From: Naegleria gruberi
Taxonomy: Eukaryota
Length of the DNA stretch: 64,000 nt
Reading direction: 5' to 3' (one strand)
Assembly: GCA_000004985.1 (NCBI GenBank)
Contig: GG738859.1
In this document: piece after piece, positions 4,037 to 57,316 of the stretch
How the letters are laid out: each line of letters opens with the position of its first letter
How positions within the stretch are numbered: position 1 is the first letter of the stretch
The notes under the pieces: model-generated
What the model saw: the letters and a program-made list of their open reading frames with translations, nothing else
Database searches by the model: none
What the model was told of the DNA's origin: nothing
Translations under genes and position numbers: made by a program

Positions 4037-5214
4037 ATGATCTCATCATCAAATGCAAAAAACGAAGATAGTGCCTCTTCGGAACTTCCTCTCCCAACAC
4101 CATCATTAGATTCATCATTCAAAAAGAAGGTTGTGGAGAGAAATTGGCTCAACCAAGAATCTGAAGGAATTGATGCTTTAGCAAAGATTGAATTTCTTCA
4201 TACAATTCCAGGAGAGAAACAATTAAAATTTGTACCAAGTGTAAAGGGCATATTAACCAATGCTGTTCACAAAATGGCACTTCAACTCACTCAACAACAG
4301 GATGAAATTATCAATGAAGCAATGAATTTTTCTGCAACTAGTTTGATTACACAAAGTGGATCTAAAGCCATGCTCATGTCAAATGCTGTTGGAGCTGCGG
4401 AAGAACAACACAGAGGATCAATATTTGTTAGTTTGAGTAATGCATCTGATTTTGATCCGAATATGGGATTTGATGCTATTAAATCCAAGTTAACAAAGAC
4501 TAATAGTATTATCACAAAGGATATTCAGGAAATGTTTTTAAAATCAATTCCTCCTTGGAATTTTGTTACACCACACCATAACTGGAAAGTAAGACTACAT
4601 GGAGATAGAGCTGTTGGTAAAACAACTTTACAGAAGAGTCTTTGTAGAATGGGTAAGTGAAATAATTTTATTGTCAAATTTTTGACATTTGAAAGATACC
4701 AATATTGAACAACACAGAAATCAACATTGTGATACTGTTGGATCAATTACAACAAATACATTAATACCAATCAAATGTATTGATTCTGTGAAATGGATAG
4801 AGCTAGAAGTGATCGATGTTGGTGAAGGATGTGCTATCAATAATCCAATTTATAATTCATGTAAGTAATTTATATTAAGAATATCACTAATATACTTTGT
4901 TGGATCTATAACCAGACAATGTTAATGATTTTCATGCCCATCTAGTCTTATTTTCCATGGGACATTTTCAAAGCTTCAAGAATGCCAAAAACAAAATCAA
5001 ACAATTGAAAAAACAAACCAACAATATTATAGTTGTTGCAACTAAATCAGATGCTTTCCAAAATTTCCAAGTTACAGACATTGACATTGCCACTCTAGTG
5101 AAGGAATTTGATTTAAAGACTGCAGTATGTCTAGTCAATAGTCATGCTCAATTCGGATCTGAAAATAGTACCTATACCATTGTGGAAGAGTTGGCCGACT
5201 TACTTTTGGCCTAA
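4037..5214 (+). CDS. atypical small GTPase-like protein with ~175-aa N-terminal extension; 3 exons (4037..4652, 4696..4860, 4946..5214)
   Basis: Introns of 43 nt (gtaagtgaaat...tttgaaag) and 85 nt (gtaagtaattt...cactaat...catctag) restore one frame. G-motifs present: G1 GDRAVGKTT, G3 DVGEG, G4 TKSD (for NKxD), G5 NSHA. The track shows the exons as separate ORFs 4037..4660 and 4957..5214. Confidence 0.5.
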
Positions 5215-37125: not shown

Positions 37126-37198
37126 GCCGACATAGCTCAGTTGGGAGAGCGTAAGACTGAAGATCTTAAGGTCCCTGGTTCGATCCCTGGTGTCGGCA
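37126..37198 (+). tRNA. tRNA-Phe (anticodon GAA), 73 nt, no intron
   Basis: GCCGACATAGCTCAGTTGGGAGAGCGTAAGACTGAAGATCTTAAGGTCCCTGGTTCGATCCCTGGTGTCGGCA. It folds as a cloverleaf and is near-identical to metazoan-type tRNA-Phe (recalled from memory). There is one U-U mismatch in the T stem. A TTTT terminator lies 3-6 nt downstream. Confidence 0.9.
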
Positions 37199-39683: not shown

Positions 39684-41273
39684 TTATTTCTTCTTATGAG
39701 AAAGGAGCATGAGGGAAGCAACAAAACTTAAAATCATCTTCTTCTTAACTTCAACAATATCTTCCCACAATAAGAAAACAACAGCACCAATCTTTCTGGC
39801 AACTGAAATGGCATACTTGGCATTTTGTTCCTTATCATCAGAAATCATTTCAAGGTTACAAGATTGTGGTGAAATAGCGTGACACAAATTGATCAAGAAA
39901 ACACCATCAGTCAATGATGAATCTTCAAATGATGAAATAGTAGTGTGACCAACAGTCTTGTTAGCCCATTTGAGAACGTCATCTTCACTAACAGCCTTAC
40001 CACCACCAAGATTTTTCAAAGTATCAAGGAGTGAAATCTTCATCAATTGCCAGACGACAGCCAAAACAAGTTTCTTGTTACCATCATTAATATCCTTTCC
40101 TGAAATGTTATTGACCTTAACACCAATATGTTCAGAAGCAGCAACACAAACATTACAATTTCCAACAGCTTGGAAAACATTTCTTGGATACTTTTCAATC
40201 TTCTTTCCTTCAAGACATCCTGGTTTAATCTTTTCCAAAATTTCAGCAAACATTCTTCCATCACGCAAATCATCGAACAAGTTAGCAACGTTAACTCCCA
40301 AACTTTGAATCCAGAAAGTGAAAGCTCTTTCTTCTCTAGTACCTTCACCATCCAAATCCAAAAGATTTGCATAATCAGTCATATCCTTAGGAGCTTCAAG
40401 AGCTGGCCTTGTGTTGAAAAGGTTGGCAACAAAGGCAAGGTTGAGCTTTGAATTACCCTTAACAACATCAAGTGGTTTGACGAGTTTTCTACAATCAATC
40501 TTGGCAGCTTCATTCAACATCTTATCAGCTCTCTTTTCCATATCAGATTCATTCAATGGTGATAAAGTACAACATTCTGGAGCAATTTGCTTCAAGAGAC
40601 GAGTATAAATTTCAGAGTCTGTAACATCGGATGAAAAGTTGGTGATTTTTCTTGATGATCCACTCTTATCCATATGATAGTTAACCCATCTCATAAGAAT
40701 TTCTTCAGTTGGTAATTTAATAAAGCTTTCCAAAGATTCACCTTCCTTCAAGAGGAGAACCAATTCAGGATGGTGCTTGATTGAAATATCCTTAGTAAGA
40801 CATCTCTTAAGAACTTGCCACAATAATCCTAGGACAATGTGTGGTAGACCTTCTTGAATACTGGTTCTGGTAATGTTAACAGTTTTACAACCAATACCAG
40901 CAGCAGAGTTGATGGCCAATTCCAAGTTTTCATTAAGTTGCCATGGATTCAAATTTCCCTTCATGTTAATGACACGTTCGTCAATAGTTTGAGGAGAAGC
41001 AATATTAATTAATTTACTATTAACAATTACCAAAAAATCATCTCTGTTTAAAAAAACCTACCAAAAGATGATACCATCCTTAAGTTTATCAAACAAAGCT
41101 TCACTGTGAATAGGAAGCTTTGACTTGACATCCTTATCCTCTCTAAGTTCGTTGGAAATGTATTCAGAAAAACTTTCGACTTCAGCCTTATCGAATGAGT
41201 GAGTACCAGTTACACCACTCACTGAGGTAGTATTTTCAGAACGACTGGTAAGCTTTGCTTGTGTTGAGGACAT
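39684..41273 (-). CDS. fimbrin/plastin-type actin-bundling protein (four CH domains) lacking the N-terminal EF-hand headpiece; 2 exons (41062..41273, 39684..41016), 45-nt intron
   Basis: Exon 1 MSSTQAKLTSRSENTTSVSGVTGTHSFDKAEVESFSEYISNELREDKDVKSKLPIHSEALFDKLKDGIIF. Intron gtaggtttttttaaacagagatgattttttggtaattgttaatag (41017..41061). Exon 2 CKLINIASPQTIDERVINMKGNLNPWQLNENLELAINSAAGIGCKTVNI...GLPHIVLGLLWQVLK.... The spliced junction DGIIFCKLINIASPQTIDER matches human plastin [20 protein letters not shown]. The unspliced sequence has an in-frame TAG. Confidence 0.8.
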
Positions 41274-41850: not shown

Positions 41851-42336
41851 ATGCTGACCTCAAAAACAAGAAGAGACAGTAGTGAGAGGAGTAGAACAGG
41901 AAGCACGCAGAGAGTGATTAGACAAAATGGAGAGTTGTTTGGAGTGATACACGAAAGTAGAGCATCAAAAACAGCAAGGGATGATTACTTTCGACCGGAA
42001 TCAACCTACTCATCATCATTTGTAGTACCTAGAACATCCGATCAGCTCAACTCATCAGGTTCTTCTTTTAAAAAACCATTAATGCCTTATAAAATGAATG
42101 CTCCTAGAAATATGCTACCAGTTAGATTCTCTCATGATACTGTTCAAGGAAGGAAGAATGCCAGAAACAGCAGTCAATTCAATCTGAGGGATGGAGCTAA
42201 TTCTGATCGAACACGGTTTAGGACAACCAATCAAGTGAGCTACATTAATCATTCGGGTGGTCTTCCTGTTGGATTTGAAAATAAGGGGATACTGAGCGAG
42301 AAAACAAAGTGGTTCCACAAACGTCAAATGGATTAA
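41851..42336 (+). CDS. hypothetical basic Ser/Arg-rich protein (161 aa)
   Basis: ATG-initiated ORF after a 570-nt spacer. Composition is R/S/T-rich. No recognisable domain. Confidence 0.3.
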   Translation: MLTSKTRRDSSERSRTGSTQRVIRQNGELFGVIHESRASKTARDDYFRPESTYSSSFVVPRTSDQLNSSGSSFKKPLMPYKMNAPRNMLPVRFSHDTVQGRKNARNSSQFNLRDGANSDRTRFRTTNQVSYINHSGGLPVGFENKGILSEKTKWFHKRQMD

Positions 42337-42949: not shown

Positions 42950-44380
42950 ATGACGCAAGAGGATCCATACGGAAACGATGAAGATCTTCTCATAATTGAC
43001 AATCATAAACCCCTTAGTGTTGTTCAACAACTTGTACCAAAGGAGGAACCACCTCAGTCAAAACTTCCACTGGAAGAAATAGCAGAAAATGAGCGTTCAA
43101 CCTTAACAAAGAGTACCTCTCATCCTAATTCTCTTTCTCCTCGATTGAATTCGCTATCTATTGTGAATAGTGAAAATAATGGAGTTGTTTCTCAAAGTAG
43201 TATAAGAAGAAAATCAATTGTATCTAATAGTCCTATCATTCCTCCTAAAACCTTCTCATCACTTAAAGATGATTTTAAAATAATGTATAGAGTCTTTACT
43301 CATCTTACCTATGTAGAATTAATCCGAGTTGGAAATACTTGTTCTTTCTGGAGAATGATACTAAGAGATTGTGAAAAACTTAGCAAACAAAAAGAGAAAC
43401 TCATGGGTGTTGAGTACGTCGATTTATATGAGAGAGAATGCAAAAGATTATGGCCTTCTAATCATGATGTGTCGAGATACCCACCAGAGAGGCCACTTGC
43501 ACCAACTGCTGAAACATTCAAAGTGAAAAATGATGACGAGGAAGAAATTAAACCATCATCACAAAGAAGAGCATCCATCCTTGAACTTGACACAGGAGGT
43601 TATAGAAGAATGCTTCTCGATAGAAATAGAGAAAACGAGTTATTCCCTATTGTATATTTAGAATTTTCAAAAACATCAAGACAATCCTATCTAAGCAATA
43701 ACAGTAGTGAATTTGTGAGTTTGGGAAGAGTTGAAATTAAATTGAATAAGAAAGAAGCCCCTAAGGCAGCAGAGAATTTTAGATGTTTGTGCACAGGAGA
43801 AAAGGGATTATCTCCAAATTCAATTCCTCTCTATTTTAAGGGTGCAACCATGCACAAAGCACTCCAAGCCACTTTTATTCAGGGTGGTGATATTGTCTAT
43901 TCAGGTGCTAGTGGATGGTGGCAAGCTCAATATGGAAAGGAAATTGCATCATCAAGAAACGACCCAATTGCAGTAGAGGGAGAAGGATCTGAAAGCATTT
44001 ATGGACAAACTTTTGATAGTGACTCCAGTGAATTATGTCACAATCCTGGATCCGTTTCTTGTGTTGTTAAACCTGGTAATGGATGTCAATTTAATATTTG
44101 TGTAACAAAGTGTAAAGAGCTAGATGGAAAGCAAATTGTATTTGGAGAAGTTGTTAAAGGTCAAGAAGTTGTCAGAAAGATTGAAACAATTATCCTTATT
44201 GCTCAGCAAGCCGCACCTGAAGATCAAGAGGTGGTCTTTATCAAGGCTTGTGGTCAAACTGGTTTCAGTGGAAAAACATTCGACATGTGGACTCATGAAA
44301 TACTGACCGAGGTAATGGAAGAACCAAAAACAGTTGTACGAAATGAACCAGTGAAATCGAGAACATGCCAAATTTTATAA
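42950..44380 (+). CDS. F-box protein with C-terminal cyclophilin-like (PPIase-fold) domain
   Basis: ATG 42950. Disordered N-terminus. F-box-like IMYRVFTHLTYVELIRVGNTCSFWRMILRDCEKL. Cyclophilin-like VEIKLNKKEAPKAAENFRCLCTGEKGL...GATMHKALQATFIQGGDIV...SIYGQTFDSDSSELCHNPGSVSCVVKPGNGCQFNICVTKCKELDGKQIVFGEVVKG. Compare [45 protein letters not shown]...GKSIYG.KF.DE.F.L.H...G.LSMAN.GPNTNGSQFFI.T....WLDGKHVVFG.V..G. The catalytic Arg/His positions are altered. Confidence 0.55.
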   Translation: MTQEDPYGNDEDLLIIDNHKPLSVVQQLVPKEEPPQSKLPLEEIAENERSTLTKSTSHPNSLSPRLNSLSIVNSENNGVVSQSSIRRKSIVSNSPIIPPKTFSSLKDDFKIMYRVFTHLTYVELIRVGNTCSFWRMILRDCEKLSKQKEKLMGVEYVDLYERECKRLWPSNHDVSRYPPERPLAPTAETFKVKNDDEEEIKPSSQRRASILELDTGGYRRMLLDRNRENELFPIVYLEFSKTSRQSYLSNNSSEFVSLGRVEIKLNKKEAPKAAENFRCLCTGEKGLSPNSIPLYFKGATMHKALQATFIQGGDIVYSGASGWWQAQYGKEIASSRNDPIAVEGEGSESIYGQTFDSDSSELCHNPGSVSCVVKPGNGCQFNICVTKCKELDGKQIVFGEVVKGQEVVRKIETIILIAQQAAPEDQEVVFIKACGQTGFSGKTFDMWTHEILTEVMEEPKTVVRNEPVKSRTCQIL

Positions 44381-44512: not shown

Positions 44513-47451
44513 ATGAGCACACATCATCGTAGTTCAAGTCTCCATCAGGAGAATAAAAAACACAAATCAAAGCACATCAGTAAGCGTCAATTAAAGAAGG
44601 AAAGTAAAGGTCGTGTTGAACATGAAGGTGGTCTCAAAGCATCTCAAATGAAGAAGACTCATCAAAACGCCAAAGCTCAACGTAAACAACGTGCTAAACA
44701 AGTTCGGGATAACAAGAAACAACAAATTTTATATAGACAACGTTTGGGAAGAAGTGGCAATCCACCAAGAATTGTCTCTGTCATGTCTTTGAGTGGACAA
44801 GGTATGTTGATGATTTAAATTTCCTCCGAGTTTTAACCGAATTAAAAGATGAAGGAGAAGTTGAAAGTGTATTTTCTGATATTATGAGTAGAAGTGAAGA
44901 ATTTGAAAGTGGAAAAATTAATTTGAATGATTTGGATTTTTCTAGTGTTCGTTCAATTCGGTAGGTAATCAAATGATAATTGACTAACCATTTCAATAGT
45001 CTTCAAAAGGAATTCCAACAAAAATCACTTACTCTCTTCTGTGTGAAACAAGCAAATTCTAGATCTGTTTTGGATGCTGCTAAAGTTTCCGATATTATGA
45101 TTTTTGTTCTTCCAGCTCAAAGTATTCAATTCAATGGTAATCAAGAACCATCCTTACATCCAACTGCTAAATATAATCTCTCACTTCTTAGAGCTCAAGG
45201 TTTACCATCTAGTATTGTCGTTTTACAAGGATTGAATCAAATTTCTCAAAAAAAGCAAAATGATGTGAAACAAGTTGTTAACAAGATTATGAAGGATGAA
45301 ATTCCAGACTTTGAAAAGGTCTTTTCATTGACTTCAACAACAAATAGTATGGATGATTCTGCCAATTTTGAAACTACCAAGACAGAAATGAAACAAATTT
45401 TGTTACGTTTGAATTCATTAACACCAAAAACTATCTATTGGAGAGAAAATCATCCATACATGATTGTGGAAAATCTTGAATTCATCAAGAAGGATCAATC
45501 TGAAATCAATGAATTATCAGATGAAAATAGTAATAATGGTACACTTGTTATTCGTGGATATTTACGTGGTAAACCAGCCAGTCCAAATCAACTTTTCCAT
45601 CTTGTCAATTATGGTACTTATCAATTGGATAAAATTGTTTTGGAAAAGGAAAATTCACATGCTTACTCAAAGAAGAAACAACAAGGTTCTAGTTCAAATG
45701 CAATGGAAGATGACAAGGTTGGTACTAGTCAAATGAGTACAACTGCTGATTCCAATGAACCAAAAACCTTGTTACCAGATGAAAAGCAAGAATCTCTTCA
45801 AACTGCTCTTGAACCAAATCTTATGGATGGTGAACAAACCTTGCCAACCAAGGAAGATTATGAAATGGAATTGGCTAACCAAATTACTGAAAAACAAGCT
45901 GGTTATGTTTACCATAAGAAGGTTGTTCCAAAGGGTATGACTCCAACTGAAGCTGCTTGGATTATTGACCATTTGGAAGATGCTGAAGAAGACCAATCCG
46001 ATGAGGAAGAAGATGAAATGATTGATGAAGCCAACAGAGCTGTTGCTGCTGATGAAGAAGAAAGACGTGTCGATTTCAATTTTGATATTGCTTCTGAAGC
46101 TCAAACTCATATTGAAAAACACTTCAACTTGGACGAAATGGATGAAGATATGACTGAAGAAGAAAGAATTGCTGAAATGATGCGTGCCATTAAATCCAGA
46201 AAGGAGATGAAGAATGAAATGGATTATCCTGATGAAGTTGATACACCATTAGATATTCCAGCTCGTGTCCGTTTCCAAAAATACAGAGGTTTGAAATCAT
46301 TCAGATCTTCACCATGGGATGCTGAAGAAAATTTACCATTGGATTATTCACGTATTTTCAGATTTAAGAATTTCCAAACATCTCAAAAGCTTGCTTTGGA
46401 AGGTTTTGATCCAGAAAATGATTACAATTTATGGGAAAATTATATCACTCTCCACATTGCTAATGTTCCAGCCAACATGTGTGAAGTTATTCAACAAAAG
46501 AAGGAACCACTCATTGTCTTTGGTTTACTTAAACACGAACAAAAGACCAGTCTTGTCCATTTACTTGTAAAGAGAACTAACGACTCAGTTGTTGTTAAAC
46601 AATCAACAAGTTATGATCCATCTGATAATATTACAAAGATGATTGAATACCATCCTCAAGAAGACGATGATGGTGAAGAAGAGCCAATACCTGGTGCTGA
46701 AGTTGAAGAAAATCCAATCAAATCTAAGGATGAACTTATTATTCAAATTGGTTTCAGAACATTTAAATGTAATCCTATTTATTCGGAACATAATCCTAGA
46801 AATGATAAGCACAAATACGAAAGATTCTTTGCTCCATATCGTTTCCTTATTGCCACAGTGTATGCTCCAGTAACCTTTAAACCTGCACCTGTTTTAATGT
46901 TCCGAAGGAATAATAAGAATACCATGTCACTTGTTGACAATATGATTGTACAAACTGAACCATCACAAACTCTTGATCAACCAAATCTTGACTTTGTTGG
47001 TCATGGCACAGTTCACGGTGTTGATCCATACCGTAGAGTTATTAAGAAGATTATTCTTACTGGTCACCCTTACAAACTTCATAAGAATCAAGTTGTTGCT
47101 CGTTACATGTTCTTCAATCCAGAAGATATTCGTTGGTTCAAACCAGTTGAAGTTTATACTAAATATGGTAGACATGGTATTATCAAAGAAGCTGTTGGTA
47201 CTCATGGTTATATGCGTTGTTTATTCGATGATATTGTCCTTCCAAAGGATACTATTTGTATGAATTTATACAAGAGAGTTTTCCCAAAGTGGACCACAGA
47301 GAGTTCATCCCTGTTAGCAGGTCCAACTATTTCAATTCCTCGTCCACTTAAACAAACTACATCATCTGGTGGTGCTTACCTCAATGAAGAAGCAATTAGA
47401 AGATTGGGTATTATGTCCAAATCTGAAGAATTAGAAATGATTGAAGACTAA
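44513..47451 (+). CDS. TSR1: ribosome biogenesis protein TSR1 (pre-40S GTPase-like factor); 3 exons (44513..44801, 44849..44960, 45000..47451)
   Basis: MSTHHRSSSLHQENKKHKSKH...RQRLGRSGNPPRIVSVMSLSGQ aligns with the TSR1 N-terminus (HRS.LKQ.NK..KSKHASKG...PP..V.VVPL). Downstream: ...LDAAKVSDIMIFVL..., EVDTPLDIPARVRFQKYRGLKSFRSSPWDAEENLPLDYSRIFRFKNFQ, HPYKLHKNQVVARYMFFNPEDIRWFKPVEVYTKYGRHGIIKE..GTHGYMRCLFD, LYKRVFPKWT. Introns are 47 nt (gtatgttgat...aattaaaag) and 39 nt (gtaggtaatc...tgactaacc...caatag). Confidence 0.8.
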
Positions 47452-49597: not shown

Positions 49598-49670
49598 TCC
49601 CCCTTAGCTCAGTCGGTAGAGCGTCAGACTGTTAATCTGCAGGTCGGTGGTTCGAGCCCACCAGGGGGAG
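49598..49670 (+). tRNA. tRNA-Asn (anticodon GTT), 73 nt, bacterial/organellar-like sequence type
   Basis: TCCCCCTTAGCTCAGTCGGTAGAGCGTCAGACTGTTAATCTGCAGGTCGGTGGTTCGAGCCCACCAGGGGGAG. Cloverleaf with a 7-bp acceptor stem (U1-A72), D arm GCTCAGTCGGTAGAGC, anticodon loop CUGUUAA, T arm GGTGG/TTCGAGC/CCACC. There is one U-C mismatch at the top of the anticodon stem. TTTT lies 8 nt downstream. Confidence 0.75.
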
Positions 49671-57242: not shown

Positions 57243-57316
57243 TGCCTCCCTTGGGAATCGAACCCAAGACCTCTGTCTTACTAGGACAGCGCTACTGCCA
57301 ACTGAGCTAGGAAGGC
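57243..57316 (-). tRNA. tRNA-Thr (anticodon AGT), ~73 nt
   Basis: Reverse complement GCCTTCCTAGCTCAGTTGGCAGTAGCGCTGTCCTAGTAAGACAGAGGTCTTGGGTTCGATTCCCAAGGGAGGC. It has a 7-bp acceptor (one G-U), anticodon stem CTGTC/GACAG, loop CTAGTAA and T arm TTGGG/TTCGATT/CCCAA. The D-stem pairing was not resolved. An oligo-T terminator lies downstream on the minus strand. Confidence 0.85.

What the first reader, a model, noticed from the sequence alone, without database searches (positions are those of the whole stretch)
42950..44380. F-box fused to a cyclophilin-like domain with altered catalytic residues
An SCF substrate-adaptor F-box (IMYRVFTHLTYVELIRVGNTCSFWRMIL) is followed by a cyclophilin fold. The PPIase catalytic Arg (FHRIIP -> MHKALQ) and other active-site positions are changed. 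This suggests the cyclophilin fold is used as a proline-peptide recognition module for ubiquitin-ligase targeting rather than as an isomerase. The domain combination is uncommon.
Basis: partly seen in the sequence, partly recalled or inferred. Interest (0 to 1): 0.5.

Follow-up and report, generated by a model that had tools for sequence, protein, structure and literature searches.

The report
Lipid-anchored F-box protein with dead cyclophilin
This Naegleria gruberi gene encodes one protein with a weak F-box, a cyclophilin domain that has lost most of its catalytic residues and a conserved lipid-anchor signal, so it is probably a membrane-tethered ubiquitin-ligase adaptor found only in Naegleria and its relatives.

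Summary
ORF 42950-44380 (+) is one uninterrupted 476-aa gene, identical to N. gruberi XP_002678964.1, which is annotated only as "cyclophilin".

- **Cyclophilin domain:** the match is strong (PF00160, E=2.7e-27; AlphaFold2 pLDDT >90; TM about 0.85 to solved cyclophilins). The active site is degraded: R55K, F60T, F113N, W121E and H126Q. A roughly 28-aa insertion follows the GGD motif.
- **F-box:** it is real but weak. It scores below Pfam's cut-off in this protein (E=0.0012), yet all 10 relatives found match at the same position and 3 pass the cut-off. A family profile hits solved F-box proteins almost exclusively (20 of 21 hits; best E=3.6e-4). The canonical Leu-Pro Skp1 contact is replaced by Asp-Asp.
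every member with a C-terminus ends in a CaaX box (CQIL here), which predicts geranylgeranylation. Human FBXO10 carries a proven CTIL.
- **Distribution:** named members come only from Heterolobosea (Naegleria, Willaertia, Acrasis); four others come from unnamed environmental or unlabelled assemblies. Only Acrasis kona keeps Arg55.

Most likely function is a prenylated, membrane-tethered SCF substrate receptor that uses a non-catalytic cyclophilin fold as its binding module. Skp1 binding, prenylation and the ligand are all inferred. I rate it a new variant of known kinds, of moderate interest.

The parts
42950..44380 (+). Complete single-exon gene, 476 aa plus stop. Identical to N. gruberi XP_002678964.1, annotated 'cyclophilin'.
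   Evidence: ORF listing. Exact-sequence look-up.
42974..43003 (+). N-terminal acidic/hydrophobic motif NDEDLLIIDN (aa 9-18). It is shared with N. lovaniensis and N. fowleri (DDDLLIIDN) and loosely with other members. The rest of aa 1-100 is poorly conserved and predicted disordered.
   Evidence: Alignments. AlphaFold2 pLDDT <50 for aa 7-110.
43259..43381 (+). Divergent F-box-like domain (aa 104-144, SLKDDFKIMYRVFTHLTYVELIRVGNTCSFWRMILRDCEKL). N129, W134 and R135 are invariant in the family. The canonical Leu-Pro position is D107-D108.
   Evidence: Pfam PF12937 E=0.0012 and PF00646 E=0.017. 10 of 10 relatives match at the same place. PDB profile search: 20 of 21 hits are F-box proteins, FBXW7 E=3.6e-4. 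Low-confidence three-helix prediction H103-117, H121-124, H130-143.
43421..43483 (+). Family-specific linker motif 1, DLYERECKRLWPSNHDVSRYP (aa 158-178). L159, E163, C164, R166, L167, W168, P169, D173, R176 and Y177 are invariant from Naegleria to Acrasis. It may be the displaced terminal 'LW' helix of the F-box (inference).
   Evidence: Alignments A5 and A6. Predicted helix 155-167.
43574..43648 (+). Family-specific linker motif 2, SILELDTGGYRRMLLDRNRENELFP (aa 209-233), directly preceding strand beta-1 of the cyclophilin fold. G216, M221, N226, N229 and P233 are invariant.
   Evidence: Alignments. Helices 218-223 and 227-231 in the model.
43646..44272 (+). Cyclophilin-like domain (aa 233-441) of the long alpha1-beta3-loop type. 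Active-site changes: R55K (K303), P58Q, F60T, M61F, F113N (N382), W121E (E390) and H126Q (Q395). H54, Q63, Q111 and F112 are kept.
   Evidence: PF00160 E=2.7e-27. PDB sequence hits down to E=5e-26. AlphaFold2 pLDDT about 90-98. Foldseek against PDB gives TM(target) 0.80-0.87 to cyclophilins. Residue table.
43895..43978 (+). Insertion of about 28 aa (VYSGASGWWQAQYGKEIASSRNDPIAVE, aa 316-343) in the loop after GGD, the '70s loop' that borders the CypA active-site groove. The YSG..GWW core is invariant in the Naegleria clade. Acrasis lacks the insertion.
   Evidence: Alignments. It splits the HMMER matches to PDB cyclophilins into two stretches. Model pLDDT is 61-68 with two short helices.
44366..44377 (+). 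C-terminal CaaX box CQIL (aa 473-476), preceded by the basic stretch KSRT. It is a predicted geranylgeranylation signal.
   Evidence: Cys at position -4 and Ile at -2 occur in every member with a C-terminus: CQIL x4, CHIL, CLIL, CTIL x2, CTIF, CNIL. The preceding ~30 residues are poorly conserved. CTIL of human FBXO10 is experimentally geranylgeranylated (PMC11042265).

Best explanation
The gene encodes a Heterolobosea-specific, three-part adaptor protein. (1) A divergent F-box-like helical motif lies behind a disordered N-terminus. (2) A cyclophilin fold follows whose isomerase active site has decayed and whose groove is remodelled by a conserved insertion. (3) A C-terminal CaaX box ends in Leu. 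Proposed mechanism, step by step. The CaaX cysteine (C473) is geranylgeranylated, which tethers the protein to a membrane (inferred from the motif and its strict conservation). The F-box-like motif docks onto Skp1 and so onto a Cul1-Rbx1 ligase (inferred from homology only). The non-catalytic cyclophilin-like domain acts as the substrate- or partner-binding module, plausibly for a proline-containing segment of a membrane-proximal protein, which is then ubiquitylated (inferred). Shown here: the single-gene architecture, the fold, the residue changes, F-box homology at family level, CaaX conservation and the taxonomic restriction.
For: The gene is one ORF and is identical to the annotated N. gruberi protein. 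The same architecture occurs in 10 relatives from Naegleria, Willaertia, Acrasis and uncultured or unlabelled assemblies, several as single ORFs on their contigs. For the F-box, 10 of 10 members match PF12937 and PF00646 at the homologous site and 3 pass curated cut-offs. The family profile finds FBXW7 (3.6e-4), FBXL5 (4.6e-4), FBXO5, FBXO22, Cdc4, FBXW8, FBXO44, FBXL2, KDM2A/B and Skp2, making 20 of 21 hits. The cyclophilin fold is certain. Catalytic decay is consistent across the family. Arg55 is Lys in all 6 Naegleria-clade sequences and Ser in Willaertia and in the relatives of Acrasis; it is kept only in A. kona. F60, F113, W121 and H126 are also replaced. In CypA, R55A leaves 0.10% activity, and F60A, F113A and H126Q lower kcat/Km (PMC2643488). 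Human cyclophilins with divergent sites (PPIL2, PPIL6, RANBP2, SDCCAG-10, the last with Glu at position 121) show no isomerase activity and no cyclosporin binding, and their authors suggest they may still bind proline peptides (PMC2911226). Meanwhile the scaffold, both linker motifs and the CaaX box stay conserved. CaaX-bearing F-box proteins are a known working design: FBXL2, and FBXO10 with CTIL.
Against: The F-box scores below Pfam's gathering thresholds in this protein. No Pfam match covers profile positions 1-6, and the Leu-Pro dipeptide is Asp-Asp in all Naegleria sequences, so Skp1 binding could be weak or lost. AlphaFold2 confidence for the F-box region is low, with pLDDT 44-55. No ligand, no Skp1 interaction, no prenylation and no localisation was or could be tested. 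Lys at position 55 together with retained H54, Q63, Q111 and F112 could leave some residual activity or peptide binding of the normal kind. A. kona keeps a near-canonical site, so the family may have started as, and partly remains, an active isomerase.
Confidence: 0.55

Rival explanations
1. The protein is a prenylated, membrane-anchored cyclophilin-like scaffold or chaperone that does not work through SCF. On this view the F-box-like segment is a degenerate remnant, or a helical motif used for another interaction, and no ubiquitylation is involved.
For: The Leu-Pro Skp1-contact motif is absent and all Pfam matches begin at profile position 7-9. Scores are below curated cut-offs in 7 of 10 members. 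The AlphaFold2 confidence is low. The best-scoring full-length PDB relatives include FBXO5/Emi1, an F-box protein that acts mainly as an APC/C inhibitor rather than an SCF receptor (my own knowledge).
Against: The core of the motif, including invariant N129, W134 and R135 and the hydrophobic pattern, is conserved from Naegleria to Acrasis. That argues for a maintained function. The profile hits are almost exclusively F-boxes. [quoted passage not shown] FBXO22, a Skp1-bound F-box protein in the PDB, aligns in register, and as I recall its sequence it has Asn-Leu rather than Leu-Pro there (memory, not tested).
Confidence: 0.25
2. The protein is a still-active, membrane-targeted peptidyl-prolyl isomerase. 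Lys replaces Arg55 functionally, and the protein isomerises prolines in a membrane-associated client. The F-box serves only to place it in a complex.
For: H54, Q63, Q111, F112 and the GGD motif are retained in the Naegleria clade. The A. kona member keeps R55, P58, Q63, F113 and H126. Databases name these proteins 'cyclophilin' or 'peptidyl-prolyl cis-trans isomerase'.
Against: Five positions whose single mutation cripples CypA or abolishes cyclosporin binding are changed at once. The Willaertia orthologue has also lost H54, R55 and Q63, yet it keeps the rest of the architecture. Relatives of Acrasis have R55S and H126N. Human cyclophilins with comparably divergent sites are inactive in vitro.
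Confidence: 0.12
3. The fusion is an annotation or assembly artefact, so that the F-box and the cyclophilin really belong to separate genes or exons.
For: None found.
Against: The reading frame is continuous with no stop. The product is identical to the reference gene model. The same order of F-box, linker motifs, cyclophilin domain and CaaX is found on independent contigs from several species. The conserved linker motifs bridge the two domains.
Confidence: 0.02

Closest known systems
Geranylgeranylated F-box proteins FBXL2 and FBXO10 (human)
   Same: They have an F-box plus a C-terminal CaaX box ending in Leu. FBXO10's CTIL is the same tetrapeptide as in the N. fowleri and L003 members. The lipid anchor places an SCF receptor on membranes (PMC11042265, PMC9988375).
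   Different: Their substrate-binding domains are LRR (FBXL2) or PbH1 repeats (FBXO10), not a cyclophilin fold. There is no detectable sequence relationship outside the F-box, where FBXL2 scores only E=0.12. This is an analogy of design, not orthology.
PPIL2 / Cyp60 (U-box cyclophilin)
   Same: An E3-ligase-type domain lies N-terminal to a cyclophilin domain. That domain has a divergent active site and shows no tetrapeptide isomerase activity and no cyclosporin binding (PMC2911226).
   Different: PPIL2 has a U-box that recruits the E2 directly, whereas this protein has an F-box that would work through Skp1-Cul1. No U-box was detected here. PPIL2 is nuclear and spliceosome-associated and has no CaaX box.
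Naturally inactive cyclophilins: PPIL6, SDCCAG-10/CWC27 and the RanBP2 cyclophilin domain
   Same: The cyclophilin fold is used as a non-catalytic binding or scaffold module. Position 121 is non-Trp and non-His (Glu in SDCCAG-10, as here). PPIL6 appears among the sequence and fold hits.
   Different: The partner domains and cellular contexts differ. None has the 26-30 aa insertion after GGD, an F-box or a CaaX box. There is no specific phylogenetic affinity: the best matches are ordinary long-loop cyclophilins such as TvCyP2, Cyp40 and CypG.
Wheat F-box cyclophilins (TaCYP23-2-6B, TaCYP26-1-6B, TaCYP26-6-6A)
   Same: They carry the same two Pfam domains in one predicted protein, as listed in Table 5 of PMC7641896.
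   Different: They are known only from genome-wide annotation, are small (about 23-26 kDa) and are from plants. They did not surface as relatives in the profile search, so they are presumably an independent fusion. Their CaaX status and active-site state were not examined here.

Membership tests
F-box domain (Pfam PF00646 / PF12937) | Profile match at or above the curated gathering score | tested here: not met
   The window protein scores 19.0 bits (cut-off 24.3) and 15.5 bits (cut-off 20.5). Orthologues N. lovaniensis (27.0), N. fowleri (27.9 / 23.6) and P0317 (21.7 for PF00646) pass; W. magna scores 24.2.
F-box domain (Pfam PF00646 / PF12937) | Family-level homology to proven F-box proteins, in register | tested here: met
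   The 8-sequence profile searched against 177,635 PDB sequences gave 21 hits, 20 of them F-box proteins. FBXW7 scored E=3.6e-4, FBXL5 4.6e-4 and FBXO5 1.1e-3. The 5-sequence profile gave 10 of 11.
F-box domain (Pfam PF00646 / PF12937) | Conserved Leu-Pro at the start of helix 1 (main Skp1 contact) | tested here: not met
   D107-D108 occupy that register in all Naegleria-clade sequences. Acrasis-type members have Phe-Pro shifted by one residue. All Pfam matches start at profile position 7-9.
F-box domain (Pfam PF00646 / PF12937) | Three-helix bundle of about 40-50 residues | tested here: inconclusive
   AlphaFold2 predicts helices 103-117, 121-124 and 130-143, but with pLDDT of only 44-55. The shallow-alignment run gave the same helices at pLDDT about 35.
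F-box domain (Pfam PF00646 / PF12937) | Binding to Skp1 and assembly into SCF | not testable with these tools
   No complex prediction was available, and this needs a pull-down or co-folding with Naegleria Skp1.
Cyclophilin-type PPIase (Pfam PF00160) | Profile match above the gathering score, and the cyclophilin beta-barrel fold | tested here: met
   96.4 bits against a cut-off of 21.7. AlphaFold2 pLDDT is above 90 over aa 230-460. Foldseek TM(target) is 0.80-0.87 to solved cyclophilins.
Cyclophilin-type PPIase (Pfam PF00160) | Catalytic and substrate-pocket residues R55, F60, Q63, F113, W121/H and H126 | tested here: not met
   Only Q63 is retained, with H54, Q111 and F112 also kept. The changes are R55K, F60T, F113N, W121E and H126Q.
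Cyclophilin-type PPIase (Pfam PF00160) | Peptidyl-prolyl isomerase activity and cyclosporin A binding | not testable with these tools
   Loss is predicted by analogy with CypA mutants and with the inactive human isoforms.
CaaX-prenylated proteins (GGTase-I substrates) | Cys at position -4 from the C-terminus, an aliphatic a2 residue, and X = Leu or Phe | tested here: met
   The window protein ends in CQIL. Relatives end in CQIL, CHIL, CLIL, CTIL, CTIF and CNIL. Cys and Ile are invariant while the preceding tail is variable.
CaaX-prenylated proteins (GGTase-I substrates) | Actual attachment of a geranylgeranyl group and membrane association | not testable with these tools
   The only support is precedent: CTIL in human FBXO10 is geranylgeranylated.
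PPIL2-type U-box cyclophilins | U-box domain N-terminal to the cyclophilin domain | tested here: not met
   No U-box or RING family appeared in the Pfam scan at E<=10.

The most novel reading that the evidence does not exclude
Heterolobosean amoebae, including the pathogen Naegleria fowleri, have a lineage-specific class of SCF substrate receptor. In it a catalytically dead cyclophilin, remodelled by a conserved GWW-containing insertion, reads a proline-containing degron. The whole ligase is held on a membrane by a geranylgeranyl anchor. This would be the first F-box receptor shown to use a PPIase fold for substrate recognition, and an example of an isomerase becoming a degron reader. A. kona (Arg55 kept) may preserve the earlier active-site state, though the direction of change was not tested.
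Probability: 0.35. Interest if true: 0.55.

Novelty: new variant of a known kind. Interest (0 to 1): 0.4.

Why it matters
F-box proteins define what SCF ubiquitin ligases degrade, and the nature of the substrate-binding domain is the key to that specificity. A cyclophilin fold in that role has not been characterised. If it works as proposed, it adds a new type of degron reader and a clear case of an enzyme fold repurposed as a binding module, with members carrying different active-site states (A. kona versus Naegleria and Willaertia). The conserved CaaX box places it among the very few lipid-anchored F-box proteins, a class only recently understood in human cells (FBXL2, FBXO10). The family is confined to Heterolobosea and is present in N. 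fowleri, so it is a lineage-specific component that could be probed for biology or selectivity. As it stands, it is an uncharacterised protein that public databases annotate only as 'cyclophilin' or 'hypothetical protein'.

Tried and rejected
- **AlphaFold2 on the five orthologues alone.** Mean pLDDT was 33.7, so the model was unusable. I repeated the run with a 97-sequence alignment. That resolved the cyclophilin domain but not the F-box.
- **The search for homologous proteins with the F-box+linker alignment A5.** It returned nothing, not even the known orthologues. I treat this negative as a tool failure, not as evidence.
- **Hits P0005-P0016 of the first search.** They looked like strong relatives (E down to 1e-62), but they are tandem multi-cyclophilin proteins whose scores add up over repeats. 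They have no F-box and no CaaX box, so I rejected them as orthologues. The same effect swamped the search with the A. kona protein.
- **Twelve further proteins from the exhaustive search.** Their matches ran past the end of the cyclophilin domain. None has an F-box or a CaaX box, so they are not family members.
- **Literature searches.** A search for F-box + cyclophilin + Naegleria found nothing relevant. A search for 'cyclophilin-like domain' + F-box found only the plant review that lists wheat F-box cyclophilins.
- **Kipreos & Pagano F-box review by PMC id.** The look-up failed because the paper is not held, so I give no figure for how often the Leu-Pro is conserved.
- **Neighbouring genes.** A fimbrin-like gene with four CH domains lies upstream on the minus strand, and Tsr1 lies downstream. 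They give no functional clue, as expected for a eukaryote.
- **A flagellar (PPIL6-like) role.** I set this aside because the similarity to PPIL6 is no better than to ordinary cyclophilins.
Full report
**What is there.** The window is AT-rich eukaryotic DNA, with GC about 0.32-0.38. ORF 42950..44380 on the + strand is an uninterrupted 476-codon frame. An exact-sequence look-up shows that its product is identical to XP_002678964.1 / EFC46220.1 / UniProt D2V9Z4, named 'cyclophilin [Naegleria gruberi]'. The window is therefore N. gruberi, and the reference gene model is this same single exon.

**Cyclophilin part.** Pfam gives PF00160 at E=2.7e-27 (96.4 bits, cut-off 21.7) over aa 257-417. A sequence search of the PDB returns 139 cyclophilins, the best at E=5e-26. 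Each match is split into two stretches by an insertion. With a 97-sequence alignment, AlphaFold2 models aa 230-460 at pLDDT about 90-98. Foldseek against the PDB gives TM-scores of 0.80-0.87, normalised to the target, for ordinary cyclophilins. The fold is not in doubt.

**Active site.** I aligned the protein and its relatives to human CypA.
- Changed in the window protein: R55K, P58Q, F60T, M61F, F113N, W121E and H126Q. The A101-N102-A103 stretch is V-V-gap.
- Retained: H54, Q63, Q111 and F112.
- A roughly 28-aa insertion (aa 316-343, YSG..GWW core) follows the GGD motif, in the loop that borders the CypA groove.

Published data quoted in PMC2643488 give R55A 0.10% residual activity and lower kcat/Km for F60A, F113A and H126Q. 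Davis et al. 2010 (PMC2911226) found that the human isoforms with divergent sites show no tetrapeptide isomerase activity and no cyclosporin binding. Those isoforms are PPIL2, PPIL6, RANBP2 and SDCCAG-10, the last with Glu at position 121 as here. The same authors suggest these domains could still bind proline peptides. Loss of catalysis in the window protein is therefore a well-grounded prediction, not a measurement.

**F-box part.** In the window protein the matches are PF12937 at E=0.0012 (19.0 bits, cut-off 24.3) and PF00646 at E=0.017 (15.5 bits, cut-off 20.5), over aa 110-144. They are significant for a one-protein search of the library but below the curated thresholds. The family settles the question.
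- All ten relatives match both models at the homologous position.
- N. lovaniensis (27.0 bits), N. fowleri (27.9 and 23.6 bits) and P0317 (21.7 bits for PF00646) pass a curated cut-off. Willaertia misses by 0.1 bit.
- A profile of the region from five orthologues, searched against 177,635 PDB sequences, gave 11 hits, 10 of them F-box proteins.
- With eight members the profile gave 21 hits, 20 of them F-box proteins aligned in register. FBXW7 scored 3.6e-4, FBXL5 4.6e-4 and FBXO5 1.1e-3, followed by FBXO22, Cdc4, FBXW8, FBXO44, FBXL2, KDM2A/B, FBXO6, Skp2, FBXO3 and FBH1.

There is one caveat. Every Pfam match begins at profile position 7-9. The register given by the PDB alignments puts D107-D108 where canonical F-boxes have Leu-Pro. 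Acrasis-type members have Phe-Pro shifted by one residue. The LP dipeptide is a major Skp1 contact, so Skp1 binding cannot be assumed. It is not strictly required either. [quoted passage not shown] FBXO22, which has been solved together with Skp1, aligns in register, and as I recall its sequence it has Asn-Leu there (memory, untested). AlphaFold2 predicts three helices in the region, but only at pLDDT 44-55.

The protein ends in KSRTCQIL, which is a CaaX box.
- Every family member whose C-terminus is available has Cys at -4, Ile at -2 and Leu or Phe at -1. The endings are CQIL (window, P0001/P0267, P0002, P0266), CHIL (P0122), CLIL (N. lovaniensis), CTIL (N. fowleri and the L003 gene), CTIF (Willaertia) and CNIL (A. 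kona).
- The roughly 30 residues before it are poorly conserved, so the motif is under selection.
- By established knowledge of prenyltransferase specificity, X = Leu directs geranylgeranylation by GGTase-I.
- CTIL is the CaaX box of human FBXO10, which has been shown to be geranylgeranylated and thereby targeted to the outer mitochondrial membrane. FBXL2 is a second geranylgeranylated F-box protein (PMC11042265).

Two family-specific linker motifs are invariant or nearly so from Naegleria to Acrasis. They are DLYERECKRLWP..DVSRYP (aa 158-178) and ..GGYRxMLLDxNxENELFP (aa 209-233). They physically bridge the two domains, which is further evidence for one functional unit.

**Distribution.** The first homology search found only four full-architecture relatives: N. 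lovaniensis, N. fowleri and two environmental contigs. The other strong hits were tandem multi-cyclophilin proteins. An exhaustive HMMER search of 1.84 billion representative proteins with the five-sequence profile added Willaertia magna KAL9648676.1 and Acrasis kona KAL0488672.1. Nothing outside this group matched the N-terminal half, and twelve borderline candidates were inspected and rejected. A search with the A. kona protein added two relatives from assembly GCA_016850925.1. In locus L003 that gene has one short intron and ends in CTIL. All named members are Heterolobosea.

The active-site states differ between branches.
- A. kona keeps H54, R55, P58, Q63, F113 and H126 and has no insertion.
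- Its relatives from GCA_016850925.1 have R55S and H126N.
- The Naegleria clade has R55K plus the other changes and the insertion.
- Willaertia has additionally lost H54 (to D), R55 (to S) and Q63 (to K).

What is conserved across the family is therefore the architecture, not the chemistry.

**Most likely mechanism.** I propose a geranylgeranylated, membrane-tethered F-box protein. Its cyclophilin-like domain serves as the binding module for a substrate or partner, plausibly through a proline-containing segment, and delivers it to Skp1-Cul1-Rbx1. The shown steps are the single gene, F-box homology at family level, the cyclophilin fold, the residue changes, CaaX conservation and the lineage restriction. 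The inferred steps are Skp1 binding, prenylation, membrane localisation, the ligand and ubiquitylation. Overall confidence is about 0.55. There are two main rivals. In the first, the F-box is degenerate and the protein is a lipid-anchored cyclophilin-like scaffold outside SCF (about 0.25). In the second, it is still an isomerase (about 0.12). An annotation artefact is essentially excluded.

**Comparison with known systems.**
- It works like FBXL2 and FBXO10 (F-box plus CaaX), but it shares no substrate-binding domain with them.
- It resembles PPIL2 (an E3-type domain plus an inactive cyclophilin), but it has an F-box rather than a U-box, and no U-box was detected.
- Its cyclophilin domain behaves like the inactive human isoforms PPIL6, SDCCAG-10 and RanBP2.
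- F-box plus cyclophilin has been listed for three wheat gene models (PMC7641896). These are uncharacterised and did not appear as relatives, so the pairing is uncommon but not unique.

I found no paper on the Naegleria protein.

**Verdict.** The item is a new variant of known kinds: an F-box receptor, a pseudo-enzyme cyclophilin and a CaaX-anchored E3 adaptor. The triple combination is apparently undescribed. Interest is 0.4. It is a tidy, testable, lineage-specific architecture rather than a surprise to specialists.

Noticed in passing
window 42974-43003 (aa 9-18): The motif NDEDLLIIDN near the N-terminus is conserved in N. lovaniensis and N. fowleri (DDDLLIIDN) and loosely in other members, inside an otherwise unconserved, predicted-disordered region. 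From memory, the pattern fits short-motif consensuses such as an acidic-flanked SUMO-interaction motif or a clathrin box (L-phi-x-phi-[DE]). That reading is speculative and untested.
   Followed up: partly
window 44513-47451 (+): The downstream gene is a Tsr1-type 40S ribosome-biogenesis factor (RIBIOP_C E=1e-103, AARP2CN, Tsr1 G-like domain). It appears to be split by one intron: a basic first exon from ATG 44513 ends near 44802 at a GTATGT donor, and the long ORF resumes before 44980.
   Followed up: partly
window 39684-41033 (-): The upstream neighbour on the opposite strand encodes a fimbrin/plastin-like protein with four calponin-homology domains (PF00307 E=6e-68). The 161-aa ORF at 41851-42336 (+) has no Pfam match.
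   Followed up: partly
window 37126-37198 (+), 49598-49670 (+), 57243-57316 (-): Three tRNA genes are scattered among the protein genes: Phe-GAA, Asn-GTT and Thr-AGT.
   Followed up: no
protein database, cluster of the window protein: The window protein is in the searched collection, but its 90% cluster is represented by a 35-aa JGI fragment (P0265). This probably explains why the first homology search returned no self-hit or N. gruberi entry. Absence of a self-hit in that tool should not be read as absence from the database.
   Followed up: yes
L003 4001-5188 (+), assembly GCA_016850925.1 contig JAESGV010002432.1: The Acrasis-like family member is split by a roughly 30-nt intron (gtaagc...aatag, about 4922-4951) inside the cyclophilin domain. 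The prokaryote-style gene call truncates it to 307 aa and calls the last exon separately (78 aa, ending CTIL). Two G-alpha gene fragments lie just upstream on the opposite strand. The source organism of the assembly is not named in the data available.
   Followed up: partly
(tool behaviour): the search for homologous proteins, given the alignment of the F-box+linker region (A5), scored 1801 candidates but reported none at E<=0.01. That result omits even known orthologues that share long exact words with the query. The negative result is therefore not trustworthy.
   Followed up: no
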